Below are positions 78-64,000 of a stretch of 64,000 bases of DNA, in pieces. Source of the DNA: an uncultured Gemmatimonadales bacterium (GTDB taxonomy: Bacteria; Gemmatimonadota; Gemmatimonadetes; Gemmatimonadales; Gemmatimonadaceae); NCBI GenBank assembly GCA_963851265.1, contig CAWKNZ010000002.1, positions 832,001-896,000 on the forward strand, written 5' to 3'. Every line of letters starts with the position of its first letter. The first letter of the stretch is position 1. The notes under the pieces were generated by a model that saw only the letters and a list, made by a program, of their open reading frames with translations, did no database searches and was not told where the DNA came from. The position numbers and the translations under genes were made by a program.

Positions 78-1088
78 ATGACCGCTTCCGAACCGCAGTC
101 GATGTCTGCCACGCCGGGCCCAGCCGTCCACGACGCGGCGCGCCTGGCCGAGTTCGAGGCGCGCATCGCGCGCGGCGAGAGCATCGAGCCGAAAGACTGG
201 ATGCCGGAGCGCTACCGGCGCCAGCTCGTGCGGATGATGGGGCAGCACGCGCATTCCGAGATCGTGGGAATGCTTCCCGAGGGCGCGTGGGTGACGCGCG
301 CGCCGTCGCTCCGCCGCAAGCTGTCGCTGCTCGCCAAGGTGCAGGACGAGGCCGGTCATGGCCTGTACATCTACTGCGGCGCGGAGACGTTAGGCGTCGA
401 CCGGCACGACCTCGTGCGCGAGCTGCTCGCGGGCACGGCCAAGTACTCGAGCATCTTCAACTACCCGACGCTCACGTGGGCGGACGTCGGGGTGATCGGG
501 TGGTTCGTCGACGGCGCGGCGATCGTGAACCAGACGGCGCTCGCGAAGCACTGCTCGTACGGACCGTACGCGCGCGCGATGATCCGCGTCTGCAAGGAAG
601 AGAACTTCCACAAGAAGCAGGGCTTCGAGAGCATCGCGACGCTCGCCGCGGGCACGCCGGAGCAGCACGCGATGGCGCAGGACGCGGTGAACCGGTGGTG
701 GTGGCCGTCGTTGATGATGTTCGGGCCGCCGGACGGCGATTCGCCGAATTCCGCGGAGCTCATGCGTTGGGGTGTGAAGAAGTACACGAATGACGAGCTG
801 CGGCAGCGCTTCGTGAACCTCACCGTTCCGCAGGCGCAGGCGGTTGGCCTCACGCTGCCGGACCCCGAGCTGCGCTACGACGACGCCTCGGGAGACTGGC
901 GCTTCGGCGCGATCGACTGGGACGAGTTCTGGGCGGTCGTGAAGGGGAACGGGCCGCTCAATCGCGAGCGCCTCGCGGTGCGAAACGCGGCACACGCCGA
1001 GGGCGAGTGGGTGCGCGAGGCCGCGACCGTGCACGCCGAGAAACGCGCGCGCCGGGCGCGCACTGGCGCGGCGGCGCGCGCGGCCTGA
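78..1088 (+). CDS. paaA: 1,2-phenylacetyl-CoA epoxidase, catalytic subunit A
   Basis: [42 protein letters not shown] di-iron motifs; ATG at 78 follows GGAG at 65-68. Confidence 0.96.
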
Positions 1089-1156
1089 CGGCGCGGACGG
1101 TGGAGGAGCGCACCGGCGCACCCGCGCCGTCGCCCGGCGACGCGCCCGCCGATTCG

Positions 1157-1486
1157 ATGTCGGCCGGGGCGGCGGACGCGCCGGCCGACGCGCTGTTCGC
1201 CCCCGACTCGCAGTGGGAGTTGTGGGAGGTGTTCACGCAGGAGTCGCAGGGCGCCCCCCACGAACACGCGGGGAGTGTGCGCGCGACCGACGCCGCGCAC
1301 GCGATCCAGAATGCGCGCGACGTCTACGGGCGTCGCGGACGCGTGCTGTCCATGTGGGTGGTACCGACGGCCGCGATCGCAGCCACCACGCCGGACGACG
1401 CCGAACCGTTCTTCGACCCTGCGGCCGACAAGCCGTACCGGCATCCCCATTTCTACAAGGTGCCGCGCGGGGTGCGGGGCCTGTGA
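1157..1486 (+). CDS. paaB: 1,2-phenylacetyl-CoA epoxidase subunit B
   Basis: [39 protein letters not shown]; start uncertain (GTG 1100 or ATG 1157). Confidence 0.92.
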
Positions 1487-2295
1487 CGGCGCCCGCCGCA
1501 GCGATTGGGGCCGCCGTCGAGACGCGGCCGCGGGTCGTCGAGTCGCTGCTCCGGCTCGGGGACGACCGCCTGGTCCTCGGCCACCGCCTGTCGGAGTGGT
1601 GCGGGCACGCTCCGATCCTCGAAGAGGACATCGCACTCGGCAACATCGCGCTCGACCTGCTCGGGCAGGCGCAGGGCGTCCTCAAGCTCGCCGGCGCGCT
1701 CGAAGGCCGTGGACGCGACGAGGATGCGCTGGCGTACTGGCGCAACGCGGACGAGTTCCGCAACGCGCAACTCGTCGAGCTGCCGCGCGGCGATTTCGCG
1801 CACACGATGGTGCGGCAGTTCCTCTTCGACGCCTTCGACGTGCTCGTGACCGAGCGCCTCACGGCGTCACCGAACGCCGACCTCGCGGGGATCATGGCCA
1901 AGGCGCACAAGGAAGCGCGCTACCACGTGCGTCACAGCGGCGACTGGGTCGTGCGGCTCGGCGACGGCACGGACGAGAGCCACCGTCGCGCGCAGCGGGC
2001 GCTCGACGCGCTCTGGCCGTACACGGCCGAGCTGTTCGCGAGCGATGCGGCCGACGCAGCGGCCGTGCACGCGGGCGTAGGCGTGGACGCGGGGGAGCTG
2101 CGCGGCGCGTGGTACGCGGCGGTCGCGGACGTTCTCGACGACGCGACGCTTGCCGCGCCGCCGGCGTTGACCCTGGCCGGGGGAGGTCCGCCTGCGCCGG
2201 GCCTCGGGCGCGTCGGGGAGCACACGGCGCATCTCGCCGACATGCTCGCCGAGATGCAGTCCGTCGCGCGCGCCCACCCCGGCGCGGGCTGGTAG
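1483..2295 (+). CDS. paaC: 1,2-phenylacetyl-CoA epoxidase subunit C
   Basis: LRLGDDRLVLGHRLSEWCGHAPILEEDIALGNIALDLLGQA, KEARYH, EMQSVARAHPGAGW; GTG overlaps the paaB TGA. Confidence 0.95.
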   Translation: MTAPAAAIGAAVETRPRVVESLLRLGDDRLVLGHRLSEWCGHAPILEEDIALGNIALDLLGQAQGVLKLAGALEGRGRDEDALAYWRNADEFRNAQLVELPRGDFAHTMVRQFLFDAFDVLVTERLTASPNADLAGIMAKAHKEARYHVRHSGDWVVRLGDGTDESHRRAQRALDALWPYTAELFASDAADAAAVHAGVGVDAGELRGAWYAAVADVLDDATLAAPPALTLAGGGPPAPGLGRVGEHTAHLADMLAEMQSVARAHPGAGW

Positions 2296-2312
2296 GCGCG
2301 GGCGCGTCGAGC

Positions 2313-2951
2313 GTGTCGCGACCCTCGCCCGCGGAGCTCGCCCGTCTGTTAGGCGACGGCTGGGACGTCCCGTCCCCGTCGCCTGACGCGGTTGCCGGCG
2401 TGCCGCCCGGCGTGGGCGGCCACGATCCCGTGGCGCGGCCGACCGAAGACGCGGTCTGGGCGGCGCTCGGCGGGGTGCCGGACCCGGAGGTGCCGGTCAT
2501 CTCGGTCGTCGAATTGGGGATCGTCCGCGGGGTGGCCGTCGCGGCGGACGATGCCGTCACGGTCACGATCACGCCGACGTACTCGGGGTGTCCGGCGATG
2601 CGCGAGATCGAGCGCGACGTGCGCGCGGCGCTCGTTCAACGCGGGTGGCGCGACGTGCGGATCGAGACGGTGTACGCGCCGGCGTGGACGACGGAGTGGA
2701 TGAGCGACGCGGCGCGCGAGAAGCTGCGCGCCTATGGGATCGCGCCGCCGCGTGCGGGCGGCGCGAGTCTCGTCACCTTGCGCCGCGCAACACGCGGGGC
2801 GCACCCGGCCGCGGAACTCTCGGCCGTCCCGTGTCCGCGGTGTGGTTCCGCCGACACGCGGCTCCAGAGCGCGTTCGGCTCGACCGCGTGCAAGGCGATG
2901 CACACGTGTGTCGCCTGCGGCGAGCCCTTCGAAGAGTTCAAACCGATCTGA
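2313..2951 (+). CDS. paaD: Phenylacetyl-CoA epoxidase maturation subunit D
   Basis: VPDPEVPVISVVELGIVR, ITPTYSGCPAM, WTTEWMS, CPRCGS..FGSTACKA..C..CGEPFEEFK; start uncertain (2313 or 2430). Confidence 0.93.
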   Translation: MSRPSPAELARLLGDGWDVPSPSPDAVAGVPPGVGGHDPVARPTEDAVWAALGGVPDPEVPVISVVELGIVRGVAVAADDAVTVTITPTYSGCPAMREIERDVRAALVQRGWRDVRIETVYAPAWTTEWMSDAAREKLRAYGIAPPRAGGASLVTLRRATRGAHPAAELSAVPCPRCGSADTRLQSAFGSTACKAMHTCVACGEPFEEFKPI

Positions 2952-2952
2952 C

Positions 2953-2984
2953 CGCGGCCCCGGTCAGGTACGACCGGGGCCGCG
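2953..2984. terminator. Hairpin between convergent genes, probable bidirectional terminator
   Basis: CGCGGCCCCGGTC-aggtac-GACCGGGGCCGCG, a perfect 13-bp stem just after the paaD stop; no U-tract. Confidence 0.55.
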
Positions 2985-2993
2985 CACGGGACG

Positions 2994-6886: not shown

Positions 6887-8068
6887 GTGCATCCGCTTTC
6901 TCCTTCCACCCCCGTCGGCGTCCTCGGCGCCGGCGCGATGGGGACCGGCATCGCCCACGTCGCGCTCCGCGCGGGCCACCCGGTCGTCCTCGGAGACGCG
7001 CGGGCCGACGCCGCGGTCCGCGCGCGCGAGGTGCTCGCGTCCGCGCTGGCGCGCGACGTCGCGCGAGGACGTCTCACGGAGCCCGCGGTGGACGCCGCGC
7101 TCGCCGGCCTGACGACGGTGGACGGCGGGGCCGAGGCGTTCGCGCCGTGCGGGCTCGTCATCGAGGCCGTCGTGGAGGAGTTGGGCGTGAAGCGCGCGCT
7201 GTTCGCCGCGCTCGAGGCGCACGTCGCATCCGACGCGGTACTCGCGACCAACACGTCATCGCTCGCCATCGCCGCGATCGCCGGTGCGTGCCGCCGCCCC
7301 GAGCGCGTGCTCGGCGTGCACTTCTTCAATCCCGCGCCGGTGCTGCCGCTCGTCGAGATCGTGCCCGGGTTGGCCACGGACCCCGACGTCACGCGCCGGG
7401 TGCGTGCGCTCGTGGACGTGTGGGGAAAGACCACGGTGGTCGCGAGCGACACGCCGGGGTTCATCGTCAACCGCGTCGCGCGGCCGTTCTACGGTGAGTC
7501 GCTGCGCGTGCTCGACGAGCGGCTCGCGGACGCGGCGACGATCGATTGGGCGATGCGCGAGCGCGGCGAATTCCGGATGGGGCCGTTCGAACTCATGGAC
7601 TTCATCGGGCACGACGTGAACTTCGCCGTCACGCGCTCGGTGTACGAACAGACGTTCCACGACCCGCGGTACCGGCCGTCGCTCACGCAGCAGCGACTCG
7701 TCGAGGCGGGGCGCTTGGGGAAGAAGGCGGGGCGCGGGTTCTACGACCATGCGGACGGCGCGCCGCGGGCCGAGCCGGTGCGCGACGTCGCGTTAGGCGA
7801 CTCGGTGGTGCGGCGCGTGGTCGCGATGCTCGTGAACGAGGCGGCCGATGCGGTCCACTGGGGCGTGGCGTCAGCCGCTGACGTCGAACTCGCGATGACC
7901 GCCGGGGTGAACTATCCGCGCGGACTGCTGGCGTGGGGCGACGCGATCGGACCGGCGGCGGTCGCGGCGGAGATCGACGCGCTCCGCGAGCGTTACGGGG
8001 AGGACCGGTATCGCGTGTCGCCGCTCGTGCGCCGGGCCGCGCGCGAGGGCGGGCGGTTGGCGCCGTGA
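6887..8068 (+). CDS. paaH: 3-hydroxyacyl-CoA (3-hydroxyadipyl-CoA) dehydrogenase
   Basis: GVLGAGAMGTGIA Rossmann motif, ATNTSSL, HFFNPAP, DTPGFIVNR, MGPFELMD, duplicated C-terminal domain. Confidence 0.92.
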   Translation: MHPLSPSTPVGVLGAGAMGTGIAHVALRAGHPVVLGDARADAAVRAREVLASALARDVARGRLTEPAVDAALAGLTTVDGGAEAFAPCGLVIEAVVEELGVKRALFAALEAHVASDAVLATNTSSLAIAAIAGACRRPERVLGVHFFNPAPVLPLVEIVPGLATDPDVTRRVRALVDVWGKTTVVASDTPGFIVNRVARPFYGESLRVLDERLADAATIDWAMRERGEFRMGPFELMDFIGHDVNFAVTRSVYEQTFHDPRYRPSLTQQRLVEAGRLGKKAGRGFYDHADGAPRAEPVRDVALGDSVVRRVVAMLVNEAADAVHWGVASAADVELAMTAGVNYPRGLLAWGDAIGPAAVAAEIDALRERYGEDRYRVSPLVRRAAREGGRLAP

Positions 8069-8754: not shown

Positions 8755-9969
8755 GTGACCACTCCTGCATACATCGTCGACGGCGTGCGGACGCCGATCG
8801 GCAGCCTCGGCGGCGGGCTGGCCGAACTGCGGCCGGACGACATGGCCGCGCACGTCGTGCGTGCGCTGATCGCCCGCCATCCAGCACTCGACCCCGCGCG
8901 CGTCGCCGACGTCGTGCTCGGCTGCGCCAACCAGGCGGGCGAGGACAACCGCAACGTCGCGCGCATGGCCGCGCTGCTGGCCGGGTTGCCGGAGAGCGTG
9001 CCGGGCGAGACCGTGAACCGCCTGTGTGCGTCCGGGATGGGTGCCGTCGCGCACGCCGCACGCGCGGTCATGACCGGCGACGGCGACGTCTACGTGGCCG
9101 GGGGCGTCGAGAGCATGACGCGCGCGCCCTTCGTGCTCTCGAAGGCCTCGAAGCCGTTCGGGCGCGACGTCGAGCTGTTCGACACCTCCTTGGGCTGGCG
9201 GTTCGTGAACCCGCGGATGCGCGACTGCTTCGGCGTCGACTCGATGGGGCAGACCGCAGAGAACGTCGCGGAACGGCTCGGGATCTCGCGCGACGACCAG
9301 GACCTGTTCGCGCTCCGCTCGCAGCAGAAGGCCGCCGCGGCGCGCGACCGTGGGCGTTCCGAGCGCGAGATCGTTCCGGTCGACGTGCCGGCGGGCAGGA
9401 AGGGGACCGTCCGGGTCGAGCGCGACGAGTTCCTGCGCCCCGACACGACACTCGACGCGCTCGCGAAGCTGCGGCCGGCGTTCCGGACCGACGGTCAGGG
9501 CACCGTGACGGCGGGGAACGCGTCGGGGCTGAACGACGGCGCGTGCGCGCTGCTCGTGACGTCGGAGGATGGCGCGCGCGTCGCGGGGACGGAACCGCTC
9601 GCGCGGATCGTCGCCTTCGGCGTCGCCGGCGTGGAGCCGCGGGTGATGGGGCTCGGGCCGGTGCCGGCGACGCGGCAGGCGCTCGCGAAGGCGGGGCTCA
9701 CGCTCGATCAGATGGACGTGCTCGAGCTCAACGAGGCGTTCGCCGCCCAGGTGCTCGGCTGCCTGCGCGAGCTCGGCGTCGCGGACGACGACCCGCGCGT
9801 GAACCCGAACGGCGGAGCGATCGCGTTAGGCCACCCGCTCGGGATGAGCGGCGCGCGTCTGCTGCTGACGGCGGCGCGCGAGCTCCACGCGTCCGGCGGG
9901 CGGTACGCGCTCTGCACGATGTGCGTGGGTGTGGGGCAGGGGATGGCGACGGTGCTGGAGCGGGTGTGA
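8755..9969 (+). CDS. paaJ: 3-oxoadipyl-CoA / 3-oxo-5,6-dehydrosuberyl-CoA thiolase (PaaJ/PcaF)
   Basis: [50 protein letters not shown]. Confidence 0.93.
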
Positions 9970-17964: not shown

Positions 17965-19179
17965 ATGCCACGCCCGGCCGACCGCTTCCGCACGCTCCCC
18001 ACGTACCCCATGGCGCACGTGCCGGTGCGGAAGCGCGAGCTGCTCGCCGCCGGGCGCGACGTGATCGACCTCGGCCCCGGCGACGCCGACCTCCCGCCGC
18101 CCCCGGCCGCGGTCGAAGCGCTCCGCGCCGCGCTCGAGAACCCCGGGATGCACCGCTACGGCTTCGGGCTCGGCCACGTCCCGTTCCGCGAGGCGATCGC
18201 GCGGTGGATGCAGCGCCGCTTCGGGCTCGTCTTCGACCCGGCCGCGGAGGTCTGCCCGCTCATCGGCTCGAAGGAGGGGATCGTCCACCTCTGCACCGCG
18301 TACCTTCAGCGCGGCGAAGTGGCCGTCGTGCCCGAGCCCGGCTACCTGGCCTACGTCGGCGGCACCCTGCTCAACGAGGCGGAGGTGTACCCGTACCAGA
18401 TCCGCCCGCGCACGCAGTACCTGGTCGAACTCGAGGAGCTGCCGCCCGACGTGCTCCGGCGCGCCAAGGTCGTCTTCCTGAACTACCCCAACAACCCGAC
18501 CGCGGCGGTCGCGCCGCGCGACTACCTCGAGCGCACCGTTAGGCTCTGCCGCGAGCGCGACGTGCTGCTCGTCTACGACAACGCGTACTCCGAGATCGCC
18601 TTCGACGGCTACGTGCCGCCGAGCATCTTCGAGATTCCCGGGGCACGCGAGGTGGCCGTCGAGTTCCATTCGCTCAGCAAGACCTACAACATGACCGGCT
18701 GGCGGCAGGGCTGGGCCGTCGGGAACGCGGAGGCCATCGGCGCGCTCGCGAAGGTGAAGTCGTTCATCGACACCGGGTCGTTCATGGCGATCCAGGCCGC
18801 GGGCGTCGCCGCGCTCGAGAGCTGGGCCGAGTTCGTCCCCAAGAACGTCGCGACCTTCCGCGAACGGCGCGACGCGGGGGTGGAGGCGTTCCGCGCGGCG
18901 GGCTTCGCGTGCGAGTCGCCGAAGGCGGCGATGTATCTCTGGCTCGAGGTGCCCGACGGTATTCCGAGCCGCGAGTTCACCGACCGCCTGATGGACGACG
19001 AGGCGGTGATCACGATCGCCGGCTCGAGCTTCGGTGCCGGCGGGGAGGGCTTCTTCCGCGTATCGCTCATCGTGCCCCCGGAGCGGCTCCGCGACGCGGC
19101 CGCGCGCGCCGCACGCGTGCTCGCGGCGATGCGCGCGGAACGCGCGGCGGGCGCCGGCGTCGCGGCGCTCGCCGCCTAA
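17965..19179 (+). CDS. Class I/II PLP-dependent aminotransferase (LL-DAP aminotransferase-like)
   Basis: [40 protein letters not shown] (PLP lysine), GEGFFRVSL. Confidence 0.9.
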
Positions 19180-19189
19180 CGCCCGGGCG

Positions 19190-22258: not shown

Positions 22259-22267
22259 GCGAGAACC

Positions 22268-23962: not shown

Positions 23963-24002
23963 CGGTCGGCCGGGCGCGGCCCGCTCGGGCGGCCGGCGTC
24001 GC

Positions 24003-50980: not shown

Positions 50981-52199
50981 GACGGGGGATTGAGAGGCGG
51001 GAGCGCCCACCCGTCACCGTGCAGGCGCCGGTCGATACGGGGCACCGCCACCGTGCGCACCCCGTCCGACCTCACCTCAGGACGAGCGTGGTCGTCCCGA
51101 GGTCAACGCGCCGGGCACGTCAGTCACGCACTCGGCCGGTCGCGCGCGGTTACGCGACGTCGCGGTCAGCGGGCGCCACGCGGTACGGCGCGCTGCCGTC
51201 CGACGCCGGGCGGCGCCACGGCGCCGGTATCGACGGCTCCGGGGCCTCCGCGATTCGGACGTCGGCGGCCGTGGGCTGCGGCGCGACGTCGCGCAACGCG
51301 GGAGCTACCAGAGCGGAACGGCGGAAGTGCTGTCGTTCGGTCCGTCGGTCCTGCAGACGGCCGGTGAGTGGTCGGCGCACGCTATAATCGAGATGCGAAT
51401 AAACTCGGCGCCACCCTGTGTGGCACCGGACCGAACGCGGCGGCGGGCGCCGCGTGCGAGACATACTCATGTTCACGGCGCGTGCCACCGGAGTGCGCGG
51501 CCGAAGGCTCCGCCCACCGAGCGACGGTCGCGACACGGTGTCGCGCGCGCGCTACGTACGCGATCGCATGCGAGCGCCGCGGAGTCGCGCGAACGCGGGT
51601 GATATCGTTGCATGATGTAGCAAAAGAGCCACGCCCGCGGTCGAGGTACGCGACCGCACGACGCGCGATGAGCCGCGCCCCGATCGCGCCCGGGACGGAC
51701 CCGCCCGCCGCGGATCCCGGCGGTAGGCTGGGCGCGCCGCACGCCGACCGTCCGAGCGCGGCACGCATGCATGAAGTCGCACCGCGCCCCGCGCCCCGCG
51801 CACGCCGTGCGTGGCGAGCGCGGATCCGACGCCGTCGTGCGTGAACTGCCCGTCCGAGATCGGAATGTTAGGCCCAATGATGACCGGCTCGACCGCAGGC
51901 GGTTCCAACAGCTCCGCCCGCGGCCGCTCGCACGCGTCGGACGGGAGCGTGCACGGCAGCCGGTTCGATTCGGCGTGGTGCGCCGAGCGCACGACGTGGT
52001 GCGTGCCGGCGTACCGCGCGTACGGTAGCGTACGCACCGCGGCGTTCGGCTCGACGTCGCACGATCGGTACGCAGTCTGCGATGCCGCCGCCCGTCCACG
52101 GACCTGCACGGCGGGTCCTGGCGCCGCGGCCGTGCGGTCGCCGCGCCAGGACGCGCGATCGTGTATTACCCAGCCTGCATCACCAGAGGAGAGCGGAGT

Positions 52200-53669: not shown

Positions 53670-55517
53670 TCAGGACCCGCCCGGTCGCGGCGGCGGTGCC
53701 GCGACCGTCCCCTCGAGCGCGTCGACGGTCGCGGCGAGGTAGGCGAACGGGGCGTTCCAGTTGATCGCGATCTCGTTGGCGGCGTAGGCGCACGTGCTGT
53801 CGACGTACGAGAGCGCGGGGACGCGCGACGGGTAGCCGGGGCAGTGGTCCTGCTGCCCCGGGTTGGGGCCGCCGACGAGCAGCCCGGGGATCGGTTCGGC
53901 GATGCCGTCCGCCGCGGAGGGGCGGTGGTGCGGGAACCGCGGCGGGCGCACGCCGACGCCGGTCACGAACGAGTAGCCGGTCGCGTTCCGCCCGAGGATG
54001 TAGTCGAGATTCGCGACCGCCGCGTCGAGCAGCGCGCGGTCGCGCGTGAGGCGGTAGGCCTGGATCAGCAGCATGCCCTGGTTGGCCGCGACCGCGTTAC
54101 TCCCCCAGATGAAGTCCCGCGGGTCGTCGATCGCGACGCCGTACGCCGACGCGCCGGCGCGCGCGGCCAACGCGCGCGCCGGCGTGAGGACGCGCGCGGC
54201 CAGCGCCGCCGTGTCGAACGCCGCCGGCAGCTCGGCGCGGTGGTCCAACAGCGAGTAGACGCCTAACATCGCGACCGAGCCCCAGCTCGGCACGCCGGGC
54301 GTCGGCGCGGCGAGCGGCGCGGCGGCGACGAGGAAGCTGTCGGCGTGTGTCGCGACGTACAGCTCCGACGCCGCCCAGCGGACCTCGTCGCGCACGTCGC
54401 CGTCGCCATACGTCCCCGTGGTCACCCGCGGCGCGAACTGCGCGTTCATCCGGTCCTGGTCGTAGATCGCGTCCGGGTGGCGACGCGCCCACGTCCACGC
54501 CGCGAGCGCCTCGCGCACGAGCGAGTCGGCGAGGCCGGACGGGGCCGCGTGGTACCGCCGCAGCACGACGGCCGCGTGCGCCGCGGTCGCCGAAAAGTCG
54601 AGCGCCGCGGCGGTGCTCTTCTGCACGACGTAGCGCGGCGTGGTCGCCGCGGCGGGCATCACGAACGGGTCGAATACCGCGTTCGTCAGCTTGTGGTACA
54701 CGCCGCCGTCGGCCGGGTCCTGCATCGTGCGCATCCAGCCCAGGTTCCAGAGCGCCTCGTTCAGCACGTCGGGCAGACCGTTCCCGCTTTCCGGGATGTG
54801 CGTGTCGAGCGCGGCCGCGTACGCCGGGACGTGGTCGGCGAGCGCGAAGAGCGTGTAGGTGCTGATTCCGGAGTTGACGACGTACTTGTTGTAGTCGCCC
54901 GCGTCATACCAGCCGCGCGGCGACGAGACGTGCGCGCCGACGGCCCGCGTCGGCCCCGCGGCCGACGGGTGTACGAGCACGGCCGTGTCGGGGTGGCCAG
55001 CGGCGCGCGCCCAACGCCCCGCATAGCGCGCCGGCAGGTCGGTCGAGGCGCGCTGGTAGTAGAACGCCTTCACCGCGGCACGCGCGACCTCGCGCGCCGC
55101 GCCCGGCTGCACCACGAACGGCGCCGACGACCCCACGCCCGCGACCGTCAGCACGTAGCGCCCCGGCCGCACGAGCGCGCCGAACTCGGCGCGGCGCACG
55201 ACCTCTCCCGACGGGACCCACGCGCGCGGCGGCGTGAGCGTGCCCGCGAACGCGGTATCGCCCCGTGCCGCGTCGACGACCGCGAATCCCCGTGCCGCGT
55301 CACCGGCGACGACCACCGCGGTCTTCGGTTCGCGGACGTCGAATCCGACCTGATTGAGACGGATGCGAGGCGACGGCACGGCGCCGGGCGACGAGCCGCC
55401 GGCCGGAGCCGTGCCGGCAGGCTGCTGAGCATGCGCCCGACCGCCGAGCGCCGCGAGCGTGAGAACGATGCGAAGCGCGCGTGTCGCGCCCGGCGCAGGA
55501 ACGGCGTGGACACTCAT
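53670..55517 (-). CDS. Glycoside hydrolase family 9 with N-terminal Ig-like domain, secreted
   Basis: IRLNQVGF, FYYQR, GWYDAGDYNKY, YILGRNATGYSFVTG, PHHRPS, NEIAINWNA. Confidence 0.95.
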   Translation of the reverse strand: MSVHAVPAPGATRALRIVLTLAALGGRAHAQQPAGTAPAGGSSPGAVPSPRIRLNQVGFDVREPKTAVVVAGDAARGFAVVDAARGDTAFAGTLTPPRAWVPSGEVVRRAEFGALVRPGRYVLTVAGVGSSAPFVVQPGAAREVARAAVKAFYYQRASTDLPARYAGRWARAAGHPDTAVLVHPSAAGPTRAVGAHVSSPRGWYDAGDYNKYVVNSGISTYTLFALADHVPAYAAALDTHIPESGNGLPDVLNEALWNLGWMRTMQDPADGGVYHKLTNAVFDPFVMPAAATTPRYVVQKSTAAALDFSATAAHAAVVLRRYHAAPSGLADSLVREALAAWTWARRHPDAIYDQDRMNAQFAPRVTTGTYGDGDVRDEVRWAASELYVATHADSFLVAAAPLAAPTPGVPSWGSVAMLGVYSLLDHRAELPAAFDTAALAARVLTPARALAARAGASAYGVAIDDPRDFIWGSNAVAANQGMLLIQAYRLTRDRALLDAAVANLDYILGRNATGYSFVTGVGVRPPRFPHHRPSAADGIAEPIPGLLVGGPNPGQQDHCPGYPSRVPALSYVDSTCAYAANEIAINWNAPFAYLAATVDALEGTVAAPPPRPGGS

Positions 55518-55528
55518 GGTGGCCTAAC

Positions 55529-57938: not shown

Positions 57939-59999
57939 ATGCCCTCCACCCGTTCCGTTCGTCACGCCGCGTCGGCACTTGCCGCGGTCGCGCTGTCGGT
58001 CGCCGGCGCCGCCCTGGGCGCTCGCGCCGCCCGCGCCCAAGCGCCCGGTCACGCGCTCGGCGTCGACACGACCAACTTCGACCGCTCGGTCCGCCCGCAG
58101 GACGATTTCTTCCGGTTCGTCAACGGCGGCTGGCTCAAGCGCACCGAGATCCCGGCCGACCGTTCCAGCTGGGGCGCGTTCCTCGAGTTGCGGGAGCGGA
58201 GTGCCGTCGCGCTGCACGGCATCCTCGACAACGCGGCCCGCACGCCGGCCGCGCCCGGCACCAACGAGCGCAAGATCGGCGACTTCTACGCGAGTTACAT
58301 GGACTCGGCCCGCGTCGAATCGCTCGGCCTGACGCCGCTCCAGCCGGAGTTCCGCGCGATCGCGGCGGTCACCACGGCGGCGCAGCTGCCCGCCGCGTTC
58401 GCCCACTTCGCCCGACTCGGCGTGGCCGGTCCGGCCGGCGTCTTCGTCGGCCAGGACGCGCGTAAATCGGACGCCTACATCGTCTCGATCTCGCAGTCCG
58501 GCCTCGGCCTTCCCGACCGCGACTACTACCTGCGCGCCGACCCCAAGCTCGTCGCGGCGCGTACCGCGTACGGCGCGTACATCACGCGCCTCCTCACGCT
58601 CGCCAAGCAGCCCGACGCGGAGGGTGCGGCGGCGCGCATCGTCGCGCTCGAGACTGCGATCGCCGGCCGCCAGTGGGACCGCGCGCGCAACCGCGACCGC
58701 AACGCCACGTACAACCGGATGACGGTCGCGCAGCTCGCCGAACTCGTGCCGTCGTACGGCTGGCGTCAGTACTTCGCGGCCGCCGGGCTCGACGCGGCCA
58801 CCGAGGTCGTGGTCCGGCAGCCCGACTACCTCCGCGCGCTCGACCCGATCCTCTCGAGCACCCCCGCGTCGACGTGGCGCGAGTACCTCACCTTCAAGCT
58901 GCTCGACAGCTACGCCGACGAGCTGCCGGCCGCGTTCCAGCAGGCCCGCTTCGAGTTCCGCGGGCGCACGCTCAGCGGCCAGCAGGCGATGGGGCCGCGC
59001 TGGAAGCGCGCGGTGCAGGAGGTCGAGGGCGCGATGGGCGACGCCGTCGGGCAACTCTACGTGCGCCAGTACTTCGCGGCGACCGCGAAGGCGCGCATGG
59101 ACTCGCTCGTGCACAACCTGCGCGAGGCCTACCGGGTCGGCATCGACAGCCTGCCGTGGATGAGCCCCGCGACCAAGGCGGAGGCGCAGCAGAAGCTCGC
59201 GCACTTCACGGTCAAGATCGCCTACCCCGACCGGTGGCGCGAGTACGCCGCGCTCGAGGTCCGGCGCGACGACCTGTTAGGCAACGCGATGCGCGCGAAC
59301 GCGTTCGAGTACGCCGACAACACCGGCCACCTCGGCAAGCCGGTCGAGCGCTGGCGCTGGGGCATGACGCCGCAGACGGTCAACGCGTACTACAACTCGA
59401 CCAACAACGAGATCGTCTTCCCGGCCGCGATCCTCCAGCCGCCCTTCTTCAACGTCGACGCCGACGACGCGGTCAACTACGGCGCCATCGGCGCGGTGAT
59501 CGGCCACGAGATCGGTCACGGCTTCGACGACCAGGGGCGGAAGAGCGACGGCGCGGGCAACCTGCGCGACTGGTGGACCCCCGCCGACGCGCAGGCCTAC
59601 GAGGCCCGCACGGCGAAGCTCGCGGCCCAGTACGAGGCGATCACGCCGATCGACAGCATCCACATCAACGGCCGCCTCACGCTCGGCGAGAACATCGGCG
59701 ACGTCAGCGGCCTCGCGGCGGCGTACCGCGCCTACCACGTGTCGCTGCACGGCCGGCCGGCTCCCGTCATCGGCGGCTACACGGGCGACCAGCGCTTCTT
59801 CCTCGGCTTCGCGCAGATCTGGCGCACCAAGTTCCGCGACGACGCGCTCCGCCAGCAGCTGCTCACCGACCCGCACTCGCCTGGGCAGGTGCGCGCGCTG
59901 GTCCCGCTCGTCAACAACGACGCCTTCGAGACGGCGTTCAACGTGAAGCCCGGCGACAAGATGTACCGCGCGCCCGAGGACCGCGTGAAGATCTGGTAA
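57939..59999 (+). CDS. M13 family (neprilysin/PepO-like) metallopeptidase, secreted
   Basis: VRPQDDFFRFVNGGW, VNAYY, FPAAILQPPF, GHEIGHGFDDQG, GENIGD, DPHSP. Confidence 0.95.
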   Translation: MPSTRSVRHAASALAAVALSVAGAALGARAARAQAPGHALGVDTTNFDRSVRPQDDFFRFVNGGWLKRTEIPADRSSWGAFLELRERSAVALHGILDNAARTPAAPGTNERKIGDFYASYMDSARVESLGLTPLQPEFRAIAAVTTAAQLPAAFAHFARLGVAGPAGVFVGQDARKSDAYIVSISQSGLGLPDRDYYLRADPKLVAARTAYGAYITRLLTLAKQPDAEGAAARIVALETAIAGRQWDRARNRDRNATYNRMTVAQLAELVPSYGWRQYFAAAGLDAATEVVVRQPDYLRALDPILSSTPASTWREYLTFKLLDSYADELPAAFQQARFEFRGRTLSGQQAMGPRWKRAVQEVEGAMGDAVGQLYVRQYFAATAKARMDSLVHNLREAYRVGIDSLPWMSPATKAEAQQKLAHFTVKIAYPDRWREYAALEVRRDDLLGNAMRANAFEYADNTGHLGKPVERWRWGMTPQTVNAYYNSTNNEIVFPAAILQPPFFNVDADDAVNYGAIGAVIGHEIGHGFDDQGRKSDGAGNLRDWWTPADAQAYEARTAKLAAQYEAITPIDSIHINGRLTLGENIGDVSGLAAAYRAYHVSLHGRPAPVIGGYTGDQRFFLGFAQIWRTKFRDDALRQQLLTDPHSPGQVRALVPLVNNDAFETAFNVKPGDKMYRAPEDRVKIW

Positions 60000-60039: not shown

Positions 60040-63000
60040 AACGAAAGTCGTGCGATCGGAACGTCAGCCCCGCGCCGTCGCCCGACGCCGCGTTGCCGCC
60101 GTTCGCGGCCACCACCGCCTCGAGTGGCTCCACCGCCCGGGCCACCACGTTCACGAGCGCCCCGTCCTTCTCCGCGCGTCCGTACACCACGGCGAACAGC
60201 GCCCGGTGCACCGCCTCGCGGCTCTTCTCGGCGAGCTGCTGGTTGACGATCACGTTCACCGTCCCGTGCTCGTCCTCCAGCAGCAGGAACACCGTGCCCT
60301 TCGCCGTCGACGGCTTCTGCCGCACGATCACGAGCCCCGCCACCACCACCTGCGTTCCCGTGCGGCACCGCGCCACCCCGGCGCTGTGCAGCGCCCCCAC
60401 CCGATCGCACCATGCGCGGTACCGCGCCATCGGGTGTCCGTCCACCGACAGCCCCACCGCGCGGTAGTCCGCCACCACCGCCGCGTGCTGGTCTAACGCG
60501 TCCGGCGCGTGCCCGTCGTCCGCGTCGCCCGCCCCGGCGTCGCGCGCCGGCGCCAGCGGCAGCGTGTCGCCCACCACGCGCAGCGCCGCCCACCCCGCCC
60601 GCCGCCGGTCGGGCTCCCACACCGCGAACGCGTGCGCCCGCGCCAGCGCCGTCGCCTCGGCCCGCACGAGCCCCGCCCGCCGCACCACGTCGGCCACCGA
60701 GCGGAACGGCCCCCCCGCGCGCGCCGCCGTCAGCCGCGCCAGCGCGCCGTCGCCGAGCCCGCGCACGTGCCGCCACCCCACGCGCAGGGCCGGCGCGTCG
60801 GGCGCGTCGTCGCGCTCCTCCACGGTGCACTCCGCCGCCCCGAACGCGAGGCACGGCAGCCGCACCTCCAGCCCGTGCCGCCGCGCGTCGTGCACGAGCG
60901 TGCTCACCGAGTAGAAGCCCATCGGCTGCGCGTTCAGCAGCCCCGCGTAGAACGCCGCCGGGTGGTGCCGCTTGAGCCAGCACGTCGCGTACGCGATGAG
61001 CGCGAAGCTCCACGCGTGGCTCTCCGGAAACCCGTAGTTGCCGAACGAGCGCAGGTCGTCGGTCAGCTGCACCGCGGCCGCCTCGGGGATGCCGTGCGCG
61101 ACCATCCGCGCGCGCAGCGTCTCGAGCGCGGCCACGAGCCGCGCGAGCTTCCGCTGGTTCCCCATCGTGCGCCGCAGCTCGTCGGCGTCGGCCGGCGCGT
61201 AGCCGGCGAGCGCGATCGACAGCGCCATCGCCTGCTCCTGGAAGATGGGCAGCCCCTGCGTCCGCCCCAGGATCGGCTCCAGCCGCTCGCGCAGCCCGTC
61301 CGCGTACGCGACCTGCGCGCGCCCGCGCCGCCGCTCCACGTACGGCCGCACGAACTTCGCGACGATCGGCCCCGGCCGGATGAGCGCCACCTGCACGACG
61401 AGGTCGTAGAGCTTCTCGGGCCGCGTGTGCACGAGCGACGAGATCTGCGCGCGGCTCTCCACCTGGAACGTGCCGAACGTGTCCCCCGCCGCGATCATCC
61501 GGTACGTCGCGGGGTCGTCCGGCGGCAGCCGGTACATCTGCGGGCGCTCGCCGCTCCGCGCCTCGATCACGTCGAACGCGCGCCGCACCATCGAGAGCGC
61601 GCCGAGTCCGAGGAAGTCGAACTTCGGCACGCCGAGCGCGTCGAGGTCGTCCTTGTCGTACTGCAGGATCGTGCGCCCCATCGTCGTCGGCTCGACCGGG
61701 GCGGTCGCACCCAGCGGGTCGGCGGAGAGGACGAATCCGCCCGGGTGCGTGGAGCGCATCCGCGGCACCCCCTCGAACGCGGCCACCGCCCGCAGCAGCG
61801 CGTCGCCGCGCGGCGTCGCCGGGTCGAACCCCGCCGCGCTCAGTCCGTACTCGGCCGCGAGCCCGCCGCGCAACGCCTCGACCCCGGCCTCGGGGTCGGT
61901 ATGGTGCAGCCGCTTGGAGAGCGCGAACGCCACCGCCGGCGCCACCCCGTACGCCCGGCAGACGTCCTGCACCGCCGTGGGCGCGCTGTACGTCTGCACG
62001 ATGCACGCGATCGCCCCGTGGGACCGCCCGTAGCGCGCGTACACGTAGTCGAGCAGCTCCTCGCGCCGGTCGTGCTCCACGTCCACGTCGATGTCCGGCG
62101 CCTCGGTCATCCCGTCCGCCCGCGCCGCCGACAGGAAGCGCTCGAACAGCAGCCCGTGCGCCACCGGGTCGACCGCCGTGATGCCGAGCACGTAAGCGAC
62201 CGCCGAGTTGGCCGCCGACCCGCGCCCCTGGCAGAGGATGCCCCGCGCCCGCGCCTCGCGCACCGCGTCCCACATGACGAGGAAGAACCCCGAGAAGCCT
62301 AACGTGCCGATCACCCGCAGCTCGTGGTCGAGCTGCTGCCGCTGCGCCTCCGAGAGTGTTGCGCCCCACCGCTCGTGCGCGCCGTCGAGCACGCGCGCGC
62401 GCAGGAACGCGTCGGCGTCGTCCGCCCCGCCGGGCAGCGGAAAGCGCGGCATCGGCGGCCGCGCCCACGGCAGCTGGAAGTCGCACGCGGCCGCGACCGC
62501 GGCCGTCGCCTCGACCCCCGCCTCCCGCCCCGCCCACCGCCCCGCCACGGCCTCCGGGCTCGGCAGCCCCCACAGCTCGTTGGGCAGCAGCAGCCCGCGC
62601 GCGGCCGCGTCGTCGAGCGTCGTCCCGTGCCGCAGCGCGACGAGCACGTCGAAGGCGCGCCGCCCGGCCTCGCCCACGTAGCGCGAGTCGTTCGCGACGA
62701 CCCACTGCACCCCCTCGCGCTCCGCGAGCGCGGCGAGCGCGCCGGCGAGCGTCTCCTCTCGTCGCCCCGCGTGGTGCAGCTGCACCTCGACCGCCAGATG
62801 CGCCCCACCTCCCGCGCCCGCGAACGCCTCGCGCCACTCGGCGAGCAGCCGTGCGGCCTCCGCCCGCCGCCCACGCCGCAACAGCGCCCCCAGGTGCCCG
62901 CGCGTGGGCCCGGTGAGCAGCGTGAGCCCCGCCGCCCGCTCCGCCACCTCGCGCCAGCGCACCTGCGGATGCCCGCGCGGCGGCGCCTTCGCGGCGCGCC

Positions 63001-63325
63001 CGGCGTCGTCCCGCGACCATTCCGCCAGCCGCCCCGCGCGCGCCCGGGTGACGAGCGCGGCCAGGTGCCGGTACCCCTCCGCCGTGCGTGCGAGCAGGGC
63101 CAGCGGCCGCCCGTCGACCATCAGCTCCACCCCGACCACCGGCCGGACCTCGTGCCGCCGGCAGGCGAGCGCGAATCGCACCGCGCCCCCGAGGTCGCTC
63201 GCGTCCGTGAGGCCGAGGCTCGTGTATCCCAGCTCGGCCGCGCGCGCGGCGAGCTGCTCGGGCGTCGCCGAACTCGTCCCGAACGAGAACGCGCTGTGCG
63301 CGCGCAACTCCACGAAGCGCTCCAC
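60038..63325 (-). CDS. dnaE2: Error-prone DNA polymerase III alpha (DnaE2/ImuC)
   Basis: Degenerate PHP (ELRAHSAFSF), QGRGSAANS, PDIDVD, HPGGFV, KFDFLGL, YGFPESH, LLNAQPMGFY, C-terminal SHDFR signature. Confidence 0.95.
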   Translation of the reverse strand: MERFVELRAHSAFSFGTSSATPEQLAARAAELGYTSLGLTDASDLGGAVRFALACRRHEVRPVVGVELMVDGRPLALLARTAEGYRHLAALVTRARAGRLAEWSRDDAGRAAKAPPRGHPQVRWREVAERAAGLTLLTGPTRGHLGALLRRGRRAEAARLLAEWREAFAGAGGGAHLAVEVQLHHAGRREETLAGALAALAEREGVQWVVANDSRYVGEAGRRAFDVLVALRHGTTLDDAAARGLLLPNELWGLPSPEAVAGRWAGREAGVEATAAVAAACDFQLPWARPPMPRFPLPGGADDADAFLRARVLDGAHERWGATLSEAQRQQLDHELRVIGTLGFSGFFLVMWDAVREARARGILCQGRGSAANSAVAYVLGITAVDPVAHGLLFERFLSAARADGMTEAPDIDVDVEHDRREELLDYVYARYGRSHGAIACIVQTYSAPTAVQDVCRAYGVAPAVAFALSKRLHHTDPEAGVEALRGGLAAEYGLSAAGFDPATPRGDALLRAVAAFEGVPRMRSTHPGGFVLSADPLGATAPVEPTTMGRTILQYDKDDLDALGVPKFDFLGLGALSMVRRAFDVIEARSGERPQMYRLPPDDPATYRMIAAGDTFGTFQVESRAQISSLVHTRPEKLYDLVVQVALIRPGPIVAKFVRPYVERRRGRAQVAYADGLRERLEPILGRTQGLPIFQEQAMALSIALAGYAPADADELRRTMGNQRKLARLVAALETLRARMVAHGIPEAAAVQLTDDLRSFGNYGFPESHAWSFALIAYATCWLKRHHPAAFYAGLLNAQPMGFYSVSTLVHDARRHGLEVRLPCLAFGAAECTVEERDDAPDAPALRVGWRHVRGLGDGALARLTAARAGGPFRSVADVVRRAGLVRAEATALARAHAFAVWEPDRRRAGWAALRVVGDTLPLAPARDAGAGDADDGHAPDALDQHAAVVADYRAVGLSVDGHPMARYRAWCDRVGALHSAGVARCRTGTQVVVAGLVIVRQKPSTAKGTVFLLLEDEHGTVNVIVNQQLAEKSREAVHRALFAVVYGRAEKDGALVNVVARAVEPLEAVVAANGGNAASGDGAGLTFRSHDFR

Positions 63326-63356
63326 CCGGGCGCTCGTCAGGCCGGGGGCGCCGCGC

Positions 63357-64000
63357 TCAATCCCACCATCCGTGCAGGAACCACGGAGCGTCGTCCGCCG
63401 GCGCCCCGAGGTCGCGGTAGAGCAGCACCAGCTCGCCGCCCCCGGTGAGACACTGCCAGTACTCGCGCGAGAGGGGCGCCCCGGTCTCCGCCCCCGCCGT
63501 CACCCGGTCGGGCCCGACTGCCGTGACCACCTCGACGAGCGGAATTCCGCGCGGTGCTCGCACCCCCTCGGCCAGCCGCTCGCGGTAGCGCACCGGGACC
63601 AGGTGCCCGCGCTCGGCGCGCGTCGTCACCGCGAGCGGACGCGGGCGCGGGAGCACGCGCAGGTTCATCGGCTCCTGCACGCCGGTGGACGCGTCGCCGG
63701 GCGCCTCGCCGGGCGCCTCGCCGGGCGCGTCGGGTGTCGCCGCGCGGACGAGGCCTAACGTCACGCCGCCGCGCCCGCCTGGCGCCGCCCGCCGCGCGTC
63801 GGCCCCGCCCGGATGTAGCGTGAGCCGCGGCGTCTCGGGGGACACGGCGGGGGAGACGGCACGCGGCCGCCCCTCGCACACGACCGGCGCGGCGCGCCCC
63901 GCCCGCAGCGCGGCCTCGACCGTCGTCGGCTCCCAGGCGAGGCGCCGCTCGGGCAGCGCGTGTGCGCCCGCTACCGGCCGCACGGGGCGCCCGGCGCCAT
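63357..64000 (-). CDS. imuB: ImuB (inactive Y-family polymerase), 3' end only; the gene runs off the window
   Basis: H.LPER, GPDRV, REYW, LLYRD, terminal WFLHGWWD directly upstream of dnaE2; frame open to the window edge. Confidence 0.8.
   Translation of the reverse strand, partial: GAGRPVRPVAGAHALPERRLAWEPTTVEAALRAGRAAPVVCEGRPRAVSPAVSPETPRLTLHPGGADARRAAPGGRGGVTLGLVRAATPDAPGEAPGEAPGDASTGVQEPMNLRVLPRPRPLAVTTRAERGHLVPVRYRERLAEGVRAPRGIPLVEVVTAVGPDRVTAGAETGAPLSREYWQCLTGGGELVLLYRDLGAPADDAPWFLHGWWD

What the first reader, a model, noticed from the sequence alone, without database searches (positions are those of the whole stretch)
389..63759. Dispersed over-represented non-palindromic motif (Y)GTTAGGC written into genes regardless of reading frame
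Seen: GTTAGGC on + at 389, 2348, 7792, 9825, 12153, 16653, 17748, 18538, 22254, 31232, 36273, 46585, 51867, 59276. On - (GCCTAAC) at 19174, 23957, 27560, 29627, 54261, 55522, 62297, 63753. That is 22 copies by eye, plus GTTAGAC variants at 12847(+) and 60491(-). 20 of 22 are preceded by C or T. They make up most TTAG/CTAA occurrences I saw outside tRNAs. 14 copies use the rare TTA (Leu)-GGC codon pair, 2 use rare GTT-AGG (Val-Arg), 3 supply a gene's stop codon (19177 TAA, 22256 TAG, 23960 TAA) and 3 are intergenic. Use of several frames and rare codons points to selection on the DNA word, not the protein. A rough zero-order estimate with GC judged by eye at about 74% gives about 5 expected; a TA-depleted model would give fewer. 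Inference: a lineage-specific chromosomal signal analogous to Chi, KOPS, DNA-uptake sequences or HIP1, or a methyltransferase or nucleoid-protein target. It also matches the integron core site GTTRRRY. I know of no described function for it.
Basis: partly seen in the sequence, partly recalled or inferred. Interest (0 to 1): 0.85.

Follow-up and report, generated by a model that had tools for sequence, protein, structure and literature searches.

The report
Genome-wide DNA word matching integron core
This soil bacterium and a scattered set of its relatives have written the short DNA word (C/T)GTTAGGC thousands of times into ordinary genes against their own codon habits, in the manner of the "self tags" that Neisseria and Haemophilus use to pick up their own DNA, and the word is spelled exactly like the recombination site of this lineage's integron gene cassettes.

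Summary
GTTAGGC occurs 22 times in the window (2.2 expected). It occurs 1762 times in the 4.6-Mb genome, 14x an order-3 Markov model and 18x a codon-preserving shuffle. It is a DNA-level word. Both orientations fill about 8-11% of the sites that can encode them. It also sits in stop codons and spacers, and it has forced amino-acid changes. Copies avoid each other below about 800 bp and are kept between congeners twice as often as other 7-mers. Word-poor relatives have no equivalent word. Word-rich genomes are patchy and confined to one order (12 of 301 genomes). The word equals the R boxes of the order's integron attC sites, including this genome's own 28-site array. Integrase presence does not track richness. 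RecC was not found, and Vsr was found only in poor genomes. Best reading: an uptake- or transfer-biased self tag like DUS/USS, with an unknown reader. This scan reported the same word before, in other windows of this genome and in another genome.

The parts
389..395 (+). word, xxG-TTA-GGC (Leu-Gly) in PaaA/PaaC-family gene
2348..2354 (+). word, intergenic (between paa genes), T at -1
7792..7798 (+). word, TTA-GGC in 3-hydroxyacyl-CoA dehydrogenase gene; shared with G004 and G012 at the orthologous site
9825..9831 (+). word, TTA-GGC in thiolase gene; shared with G002, CTG-GGC in G001
12153..12159 (+). word, TTA-GGC in aldehyde dehydrogenase/MaoC gene; shared with G001, G002, G012; TTG-GGC in G004
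16653..16659 (+). word, TTA-GGC near start of homogentisate dioxygenase-like gene; shared by all 5 genomes of the genus plus G012 and G018
17748..17754 (+). word, TTA-GGC in the same gene; kept in G001, G002, G004; TTG-GGC in G003
18538..18544 (+). word, GTT-AGG-C (Val-Arg, rare codons) in aminotransferase gene
19174..19180 (-). word on - strand; its TAA is the stop codon of the aminotransferase gene
22254..22260 (+). word; its TAG is the stop codon of the GHL10 glycosyl-hydrolase-like gene
23957..23963 (-). word on - strand; its TAA is the stop codon of a cupin gene
27560..27566 (-). word, TTA-GGC in MacB/FtsX-type permease gene (- strand gene)
29627..29633 (-). word, TTA-GGC in the same permease gene
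31232..31238 (+). word, GTT-AGG-C frame in a coding stretch my gene caller missed
36273..36279 (+). word, intergenic, G at -1 (one of two copies without C/T)
46585..46591 (+). word, TTA-GGC in PAS-GGDEF-EAL gene
51867..51873 (+). word, intergenic
54261..54267 (-). word, TTA-GGC in GH9 glycosyl hydrolase gene
55522..55528 (-). word, intergenic, A at -1
59276..59282 (+). word, TTA-GGC in M13 peptidase gene
62297..62303 (-). word, TTA-GGC in DNA polymerase III alpha-family gene
63753..63759 (-). word, TTA-GGC in a gene that runs off the window's end

Best explanation
(C/T)GTTAGGC, with G, A or C but rarely T after it, is a double-strand DNA word read by an as yet unknown protein. It is kept at about one copy per 2.6 kb by a sequence-biased DNA-exchange process. 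Most likely, word-bearing DNA is preferentially taken up (or otherwise transferred) and then recombined by homology. Word-carrying alleles therefore replace word-free ones, by molecular drive with or without selection for exchange within the lineage. This is how DUS of Neisseriaceae and USS of Pasteurellaceae are thought to spread. Shown here: the word's hyper-abundance, its independence of reading frame and strand, its cost in rare codons and amino-acid changes, its positional conservation with turnover, its short-range self-avoidance, its absence from an imported 45-kb tract and from cassette genes, and its patchy lineage distribution. Inferred: the uptake or transfer step and the existence of a specific reader.
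For: Abundance: 1762 copies against 126.5 expected (order-3 Markov); it is the top 7-mer, and CGTTAGGC is the top 8-mer at 1396 against 58.3. CDS copies number 1282 against 69.7 in the codon-preserving shuffle.
DNA level: TTA-GGC makes up 1001 of 12591 Leu-Gly pairs (8%), and on the other strand CCT-AAC makes up 199 of 1838 Pro-Asn pairs (10.8%). 119 of 421 TAA stops and 82 of 731 TAG stops lie in the word, and 295 copies are intergenic. The same flank preference holds in every class (-1 C 74-85%, T 7-16%; +1 T only 4-5%).
Protein cost: words were created with amino-acid replacements at orthologous sites, for example Pro-Arg or Asp-Asp to Pro-Asn, Ile-Gly or Cys-Gly to Leu-Gly.
Spacing: gaps under 200 bp make up 0.85% against 5.8%, and gaps under 400 bp 4.6% against 11.0% (sd 0.9), in 300 permutations among encodable sites. 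The two agree by 1600 bp. 40-kb window counts are otherwise Poisson-like.
Conservation: 17 of 26 G000 words are kept in congeners at about 80% nucleotide identity, against 27-33% for other 7-mers and 18 of 54 for the commonest Leu-Gly spelling. 34 of 56 are shared between G235 and G292.
Foreign DNA lacks it: a 45-kb core tract (gidA-parAB-mnmE) has 0 in-frame words against 14 expected. It is 74-82% identical to congeners where its flanks are 84-89%, and congeners do carry words there. Only 2 words lie inside cassette genes of the 31-kb integron array.
Lineage pattern: 10 of 31 relatives and 12 of 301 genomes of the phylum exceed twice the reversed-word control. All are in one order and none of 102 lie outside it. 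Copy number ranges from about 450 to 6360, and G012 shows a dialect (CGTTAGG followed by C or T). Poor relatives G006 and G029 have no other hyper-abundant word in 200 kb each.
Machinery is present: ComEC in 31 of 31, PilQ-like secretin in 30 of 31, DprA in 5 of 5, and type IV pilins.
Parallels in print: DUS spacing, conservation and absence from recent DNA (PMC2397512, abstract and passages); transformation feeding cassettes to integrons (PMC12614218, abstract and passages).
Against: No uptake or transformation has been shown. I found no report of natural transformation in this group: one search listing gave 6 incidental hits.
The competence-type genes are equally present in word-poor relatives, so they do not explain the difference. 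No gene was found that splits rich from poor genomes.
Inverted word pairs in terminators, typical of Neisseria DUS, are rare here.
One-off variants are not generally enriched, apart from GTTGGGC. In Haemophilus many one-off USS exist (recalled, not checked).
Intergenic enrichment is modest: 17% of copies lie in 13% of the genome.
Positional conservation was no better than the control in one region: 4 of 16 and 4 of 10 between G004 and G001.
A chance match to the attC box is very unlikely, yet the uptake reading does not predict that match by itself.
Confidence: 0.45

Rival explanations
1. The words are binding sites of an abundant chromosomal protein that acts in cis (nucleoid organisation, segregation, replication or repair). 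Ordinary selection keeps them at regular density.
For: Both orientations are used, counts are even and Poisson-like, and copies avoid each other at short range. All three large replicons of G299 carry the word. Positions are conserved about twice as well as background.
Against: Selection per site would be tiny, yet it overrides codon usage and protein sequence at 1300 to over 6000 sites. A 45-kb core tract around parAB is tolerated without any word. Close relatives manage without any such word. Copy number varies 14-fold between rich genera.
Confidence: 0.2
2. The words are half-sites for the integron integrase or another Xer-family tyrosine recombinase. They might serve as landing pads for cassettes, as raw material for new cassettes, or as decoys that titrate the integrase.
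For: The word is exactly the attC R box, including C at -1. In G021 and G019 every attC begins with the reverse complement of CGTTAGGC and ends with TGTTAGGC. G299 attC sites use it. The R' box is CGTTAGGC in all 8 seeds of G000's own array. Integrons are common in the order (18 of 31 genomes over cut-off). Hyper-abundance is confined to that order.
Against: Integrase does not track richness. It is over cut-off in 5 of 10 rich and 13 of 21 poor genomes, and present both in rich G235, G292, G299, G159 and in poor G288. The richest genome of those 31 relatives, G012, has only fragments, and G000's own gene looks split. 28 of 29 attC-like hits in G000 lie in the one array, so there is no sign of cassettes landing at words. 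The words are lone half-sites with no conserved partner within 8 bp.
Confidence: 0.12
3. The word is the product of a sequence-specific mutation or repair bias (very-short-patch-type repair, or a methylation-linked process) that converts near-cognate sites into the word.
For: The word is sharply defined. GTTGGGC, one transition away, is 2.5x enriched. It is also the commonest alternative state at orthologous sites.
Against: A context-driven bias cannot know about neighbours, yet copies avoid each other below about 800 bp. Most orthologous non-word states differ at two or more bases, and often change the protein. No single neighbour pool is large enough to yield 1762 copies. Vsr was found in 3 of 31 genomes, all poor, and in 0 of 10 rich.
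Confidence: 0.08
4. The word is a Chi-like recombination signal, or a polar translocase guide of the KOPS/AIMS type.
For: Its density resembles Chi in some genomes (recalled, not checked). In two gene-strand-biased regions of contig C2, the presumed leading orientation fills 9.2% of encodable sites (143 of 1551) against 6.6% (38 of 579) for the lagging one.
Against: Gene-strand bias is explained by encodability. RecC was found in 0 of 5 genomes; an AddA-like long protein was seen in G000, G288 and G006 but not in hyper-rich G012 and G235. Poor relatives have no alternative word, although any such universal machinery would need one. Replichores could not be defined because there is no replication-linked GC3 skew.
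Confidence: 0.07

Closest known systems
DNA uptake sequences: DUS of Neisseriaceae (read by the minor pilin ComP) and USS of Pasteurellaceae
   Same: A short, exact, non-palindromic word on both strands at about one per 0.6-3 kb. It is written into genes in several frames at a cost to codons and proteins. It is conserved yet turns over, and it is rare in recently acquired DNA. Spacing is more even than chance. It is lineage-specific with dialects. The DUS properties come from PMC2397512 (abstract and passages) and the listing of PMC3630211.
   Different: The phylum is different and uptake has not been shown. The word is 7-9 bp, against 10-12 bp (DUS) or 9 bp plus flanks (USS) (lengths recalled). 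Few copies sit as inverted pairs in terminators. Distribution is patchy even within a family, and within one genus (g42: 3896 and 4141 against 66). The word coincides with the integron attC R box, for which I know of no parallel in DUS or USS.
Integron core site GTTRRRY / attC R' and R'' boxes
   Same: The spelling is identical, including the preferred C or T before it. The lineage's own attC sites carry the word at both ends.
   Different: 98% of copies in G000 (all but 35 of 1762) lie outside the cassette array. They have no inverted partner, no L boxes and no hairpin, and most sit inside housekeeping genes. Integrase presence does not track richness.
Chi sites (RecBCD/AddAB) and KOPS/AIMS
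   Same: Over-represented short asymmetric chromosomal words.
   Different: There is no clear replication polarity, no RecC, no substitute word in relatives, and the enrichment is far stronger.
HIP1 of cyanobacteria
   Same: A hyper-abundant 8-mer written into genes.
   Different: HIP1 is a palindrome linked to a methylase (recalled). This word is asymmetric, and no modification data were available.

Membership tests
DNA uptake sequence (DUS/USS) | Short exact word hyper-abundant on both strands, about one per kb | tested here: met
   1762 copies, 14x order-3 Markov, 18x codon-preserving shuffle; 885 on the + strand and 877 on the - strand
DNA uptake sequence (DUS/USS) | DNA carrying the word is taken up or transforms preferentially | not testable with these tools
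   Needs uptake assays in a cultured word-rich strain
DNA uptake sequence (DUS/USS) | A specific receptor (ComP in Neisseria) | tested here: inconclusive
   Seven prepilin-like genes in G000. The two pilins tested and one pilus-cluster protein have homologues in rich and poor genomes alike
DNA uptake sequence (DUS/USS) | Transformation machinery encoded | tested here: met
   ComEC 31/31, PilQ-like secretin 30/31 (below curated cut-off), DprA 5/5, ComEA-like weak 5/5. These are also present in poor genomes
DNA uptake sequence (DUS/USS) | Rare in recently acquired DNA, conserved in the core genome, evenly spaced | tested here: met
   45-kb imported tract with 0 against 14 expected; 2 words in cassette genes; 17/26 kept against about 30% for controls; short gaps depleted
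Integron attC site | R''-L''...L'-R' imperfect inverted repeat that folds into a hairpin, in arrays near intI | tested here: not met
   True for 28 sites in one array. The other roughly 1727 words have no partner or conserved flank
Integron attC site | Core sequence GTTRRRY | tested here: met
   Exact match to local attC R boxes
Chi site | RecBCD or AddAB present, and the word oriented with replication | tested here: not met
   RecC 0/5; AddA-like protein not seen in G012 or G235; both orientations equally saturated; weak regional bias only
KOPS/AIMS | Strong strand skew that switches at origin and terminus | tested here: inconclusive
   Replichores could not be defined. Per-contig strand counts are near equal. 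Orientation follows gene strand
REP/MITE or other dispersed repeat | Conserved sequence beyond the core | tested here: not met
   No signal beyond -1 and +1. Counts of longer k-mers equal the maximal-order expectation
Very-short-patch repair product | Vsr endonuclease with a cognate methylase | tested here: not met
   Vsr found in 0 of 10 rich genomes and 3 of 21 poor

The most novel reading that the evidence does not exclude
The word is a DNA-uptake (or other transfer) tag whose specificity is the integron attC R box. One reader would then make these bacteria import both their own lineage's DNA and gene cassettes. That would mechanically couple transformation to integron cassette capture. It would be the first uptake-sequence system outside the Proteobacteria, and the first with a traceable origin for its sequence.
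Probability: 0.25. Interest if true: 0.9.

Novelty: new variant of a known kind. Interest (0 to 1): 0.8.

Why it matters
Only two bacterial families are known to tag their DNA for uptake, and where those tag sequences came from is an open question. Here a tag-like word of comparable or greater density occurs in an unrelated soil phylum. The word is identical to the recombination box of the lineage's gene cassettes. If the link is causal, it ties two major routes of bacterial gene flow together, and both become testable in a cultivable group. Practically, the word is a strong marker for binning these genomes and for spotting imported DNA in them.

Tried and rejected
- **Literature by raw word:** 4851 papers, all primers or unrelated. 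The word plus 'integron' gave 111 papers; the 15 listed were cassette or primer contexts. 'Gemmatimonad' with integron/attC gave 6 papers, and with 'DNA uptake sequence' none on this word. 'Gemmatimonas' with 'natural transformation' gave 6 incidental listings. I therefore found nothing in print on this word as a genome-wide signal; the held library lacks most subscription journals.
- **Replichores:** plain and third-position GC skew gave no replication signal, so polarity could be tested only in two gene-strand-biased regions.
- **Exclusion zone around parAB:** rejected, because relatives carry words there. A parS-like search with a recalled consensus found nothing near parB.
- **attC in G000:** the first two attempts failed. 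Ungapped complementarity gave 0 of 158 candidates, and an HMM of G021-type attC gave no hit. MFE per base does not discriminate in this GC-rich genome. Local seeds then worked.
- **Dense same-strand clusters in poor genomes:** first taken for mobile elements or contamination; they are cassette arrays.
- **Two-gene tree (HPPD plus hgmA, 18 genomes):** it conflicts with the family labels, so I do not use it for the number of origins.
- **Reader hunt:** two pilins, one pilus-cluster protein, ComEC, PilQ, DprA, ComEA-like, IntI, RecC, AddA and Vsr. None separates rich from poor genomes.
- **Rfam on the intI region:** no group II intron or other RNA. Pfam gave only a C-terminal integrase piece.
- **Sequencing runs:** only Logan contigs of soil metagenomes, with a best share of 0.23.
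- **mRNA- or translation-level signal:** rejected, because the antisense spelling is as saturated as the sense one and spacers and stop codons carry the word.

Full report
**Observation.** The window is G000:C2:832001-896000 of a 4,601,510-base, 12-contig assembly with about 73% G+C. GTTAGGC occurs at exactly the 22 places listed, 14 on + and 8 on -. 100 dinucleotide-preserving shuffles gave 2.21 +/- 1.42, with a largest value of 7. 20 of 22 copies follow C or T, both GTTAGAC variants are present, and 22 of the 33 TTAG/CTAA in the window belong to the word.

The window holds ordinary chromosomal genes: phenylacetate and homogentisate catabolism, thiolase, IF-1, EF-P, Tex, kinases, glycosyl hydrolases and a Pol III alpha-family gene. 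By my own crude gene calls, 13 copies read xxG-TTA-GGC, 2 read GTT-AGG-C, 3 supply a stop codon and 4 are intergenic.

**Genome-wide enrichment.** There are 1762 copies, one per 2.6 kb. Against an order-3 Markov model the word is the most over-represented 7-mer (126.5 expected, z 145), and CGTTAGGC is the most over-represented 8-mer (1396 against 58.3, z 175). 98% of TTAGGC follow G, and 95% of GTTAGG precede C. A shuffle that keeps every protein and every gene's codon counts gives 69.7 +/- 7.6 copies in coding sequence against 1282 observed. For the window's genes it gives 0.70 against 13.

**The word acts at the DNA level, not on mRNA or protein.** Copies in genes are mostly sense (993 as TTA-GGC). 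That is only because Leu-Gly is seven times commoner than Pro-Asn, the peptide the reverse complement encodes. TTA-GGC makes up 1001 of 12591 Leu-Gly pairs (8%), and CCT-AAC makes up 199 of 1838 Pro-Asn pairs (10.8%).
- 79% of all TTA codons precede GGC.
- 119 of 421 TAA stops and 82 of 731 TAG stops are supplied by the word.
- 295 copies are intergenic. They are densest between convergent genes: 66 in 59.6 kb, against 64 in 180 kb between divergent genes.
- Flank preferences are the same in sense, antisense, boundary and intergenic copies: -1 is C in 74-85% and T in 7-16%; +1 is G more often than A or C, and T in only 4-5%. There is nothing beyond those two positions.

The recognised site is therefore about nine base pairs, YGTTAGGCV, and it is not part of a longer repeat.

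**Evolutionary behaviour.** I made codon alignments of ten window genes with up to 17 relatives. Some positions are shared across the genus, and even with other rich genera; the site at 16653 is shared by all five congeners plus G012 and G018. Others turn over. The usual one-step neighbour is TTG-GGC, which explains why GTTGGGC alone among the one-off variants is enriched. Many words were made with amino-acid replacements: Pro-Arg, Pro-Glu or Asp-Asp to Pro-Asn, and Leu-Ala, Leu-Arg, Ile-Gly or Cys-Gly to Leu-Gly.

Conservation between species is above background in most comparisons:
- 17 of 26 aligned G000 words are kept in congeners at about 80% nucleotide identity. Other 7-mers are kept at 27-33%, and the commonest Leu-Gly spelling at 18 of 54. 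The three comparisons share the same nine words.
- In the reverse direction the figure is 17 of 36.
- In the parB region, G004 against G001 gives only 4 of 16 and 4 of 10, no better than the control.
- In another genus, G235 and G292 share 34 of 56. Their distant congener G288 has the word at 0 of 73 aligned positions, mostly showing the standard spelling instead.

**Spacing.** I compared in-frame words with 300 permutations among encodable sites of the same class.

| Gap to next word | Observed | Permuted |
|---|---|---|
| under 100 bp | 0.17% | 3.0% |
| under 200 bp | 0.85% | 5.8% |
| under 400 bp | 4.6% | 11.0% (sd 0.9) |
| under 800 bp | 15.3% | 20.2% |
| under 1600 bp | 34.9% | 35.2% |

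Counts in 40-kb windows are otherwise Poisson-like (z sd 1.0). A neighbour-blind mutational process cannot produce this self-avoidance. A process in which one word per fragment suffices can.

**One outlier.** C1:182876-227962 (45 kb) has no in-frame word where 14 are expected (P about 1e-6). It carries core genes: gidA, parA, parB and mnmE. I first suspected a functional exclusion zone, but G004, G001 and G012 carry words through the same region. Inside the tract, identity to congeners is 74-82%, against 84-89% at its flanks. At congeners' word positions G000 mostly has the standard spelling. The simplest reading is a large homologous import from a word-poor donor. That shows both that foreign DNA lacks the tag and that long-tract exchange happens.

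**Distribution.** I called a genome rich if its count exceeded twice that of the reversed-word control.
- Among 31 relatives, 10 are rich: all five of the genus, plus G008, G012 (6360 copies), G017, G018 and G030.
- Among 301 genomes of the phylum, 12 are rich: 10 in the window's family and 2 in one genus of a sister family. None of the 102 genomes outside the order is rich.
- One genus holds 3896, 4141 and 66 copies.
- G012 has only about 60% G+C in the 71 kb sampled, yet one word per 857 bp. It also shows a dialect, with CGTTAGG followed by C in 64 cases and T in 19.
- 200-kb samples of the poor genomes G006 and G029 show no hyper-abundant word at all (best z about 10, ratio 2-3). The same-sized G000 sample gives z 29-34.

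The word therefore belongs to a lineage-specific system. It is not a local spelling of some universal signal. The tallies include the unpublished genomes G011, G078, G117 and G198 as word-poor rows; no other claim rests on them. The family name Gemmatimonadaceae is taken from earlier scan notes and was not verified here.

**Integron link.** In word-poor genomes the 8-mer forms regular same-strand runs with a period of about 550 bp, next to integron integrase genes. Reading them shows classical attC sites: about 90 bases, beginning with the reverse complement of CGTTAGGC and ending with TGTTAGGC (76 sites were collected). The rich genome G299 has attC sites with the same boxes beside its integrase.

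G000 itself has an array. Of 29 attC-like hits, 28 lie in C10:186389-214570 and C6:379-2323, beside an integrase gene that looks split by about 2 kb. R' is CGTTAGGC in all eight seeds. Only 35 of the 1762 words lie in that array, and only 2 of those lie inside cassette genes. Earlier notes of this scan show that GTTAGGC cores occur in integrons of several phyla, so the attC use is the older one.

A chance coincidence of a hyper-abundant 7-mer with the local R box is of the order of 1 in 8000 by my own estimate, so I take the link as real.
- It is over cut-off in 5 of 10 rich and 13 of 21 poor genomes.
- It is intact in rich G235, G292, G299 and G159, and also in poor G288.
- It is only fragmentary in G012, the richest of the 31 relatives searched.
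- No attC lies outside the array in G000.

**Other candidate readers.**
- RecC was found in 0 of 5 genomes. An AddA-like long helicase-nuclease was seen in G000, G288 and G006 but not in hyper-rich G012 and G235.
- Vsr was found in 3 of 31 genomes, all poor.
- ComEC (31 of 31), a PilQ-like secretin (30 of 31, below the curated cut-off), DprA (5 of 5), a weak ComEA-like match (5 of 5) and seven prepilin-like genes are present, but in rich and poor genomes alike.
- Two pilins and one pilus-cluster protein likewise do not split the groups.
- Replication polarity could not be tested properly, because the genome shows no replication-linked GC3 skew. In two gene-strand-biased regions the presumed leading orientation fills 9.2% of encodable sites against 6.6%, a weak effect.

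**Interpretation.** The word shows hyper-abundance, strand symmetry, protein cost, conservation with turnover, self-spacing, absence from imported and mobile DNA, patchy lineage distribution, dialects and widely varying copy number. Together these match what is described for DUS and USS (PMC2397512, abstract and passages). They also match the molecular-drive model, in which any sequence bias in DNA transfer accumulates its preferred word.

I therefore rank the explanations as follows:

| Explanation | Confidence |
|---|---|
| Uptake- or transfer-biased self tag | 0.45 |
| Cis-acting chromosomal protein site | 0.20 |
| Recombinase half-sites | 0.12 |
| Repair or mutation bias | 0.08 |
| Chi/KOPS | 0.07 |

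That is plausible because transformation has been shown to deliver single-stranded cassettes to a chromosomal integron in Vibrio cholerae (PMC12614218, abstract and passages).

**Status.** The same word was already reported by this scan from other windows of this genome and from another genome of the family, with the same closest analogy.
- the permutation test of spacing;
- the equal saturation of both orientations;
- the imported word-free tract;
- the demonstration that local attC sites, including G000's own array, carry the exact 8-mer while the integrase does not track richness;
- the negative tests for RecC, AddA and Vsr;
- the absence of substitute words in poor relatives;
- the phylum-wide survey;

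Noticed in passing
L037-L039 (G000:C1:182876-227962): A 45-kb core tract (gidA, parA, parB, mnmE and neighbours) has no in-frame word. Its identity to congeners is lower (74-82%) than that of its flanks (84-89%). It looks like a large homologous import from a word-poor donor.
   Followed up: yes
G000:C10:186389-214570 and L016 (G000:C6:1-6044): A chromosomal integron is split over two contig ends. It has 28 attC-like sites, all on one strand. The integrase gene has its N-terminal 265 positions and C-terminal 54 positions about 2 kb apart, and it is convergent with the array rather than divergent.
   Followed up: partly
L009-L010 (G021:C95:1-24000): A cassette array of roughly 20 attC sites sits at the end of a 203-kb contig in a word-poor genome (L009 gave about 20 attC pairs per strand). 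Its attC sites are very homogeneous at 90-93 bases.
   Followed up: partly
L050-L052, L033 (G012): The genome richest in the word among the 31 relatives has only about 60% G+C in the 71 kb sampled. It uses a looser last letter (C or T). Only integrase fragments were found in it.
   Followed up: partly
window 30963-31724: A stretch with a strong coding score on the + strand was missed by my gene caller. It contains the word at 31232 in the GTT-AGG-C frame and lies just upstream of the EF-P gene.
   Followed up: no
whole genome G000: Third-position GC skew is dominated by a gene-strand effect (about -0.09). It shows no replication-linked switch on any contig. Contig C2 has long runs of co-oriented genes that flip near 1.35 Mb, close to a Xer-like recombinase gene (C2:1346667-1347503).
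   Followed up: no
L093 (G299:C2:860001-873000): A run of 12 same-strand words about 800-900 bp apart lies beside the integrase. It is probably a cassette array whose R'' boxes differ from the exact word.
   Followed up: no
window 60038-63322: A second Pol III alpha-family gene (1094 aa, with PHP, NTPase and finger domains) looks like an error-prone DnaE2-type polymerase. I did not check whether imuA/imuB-type neighbours are present.
   Followed up: no
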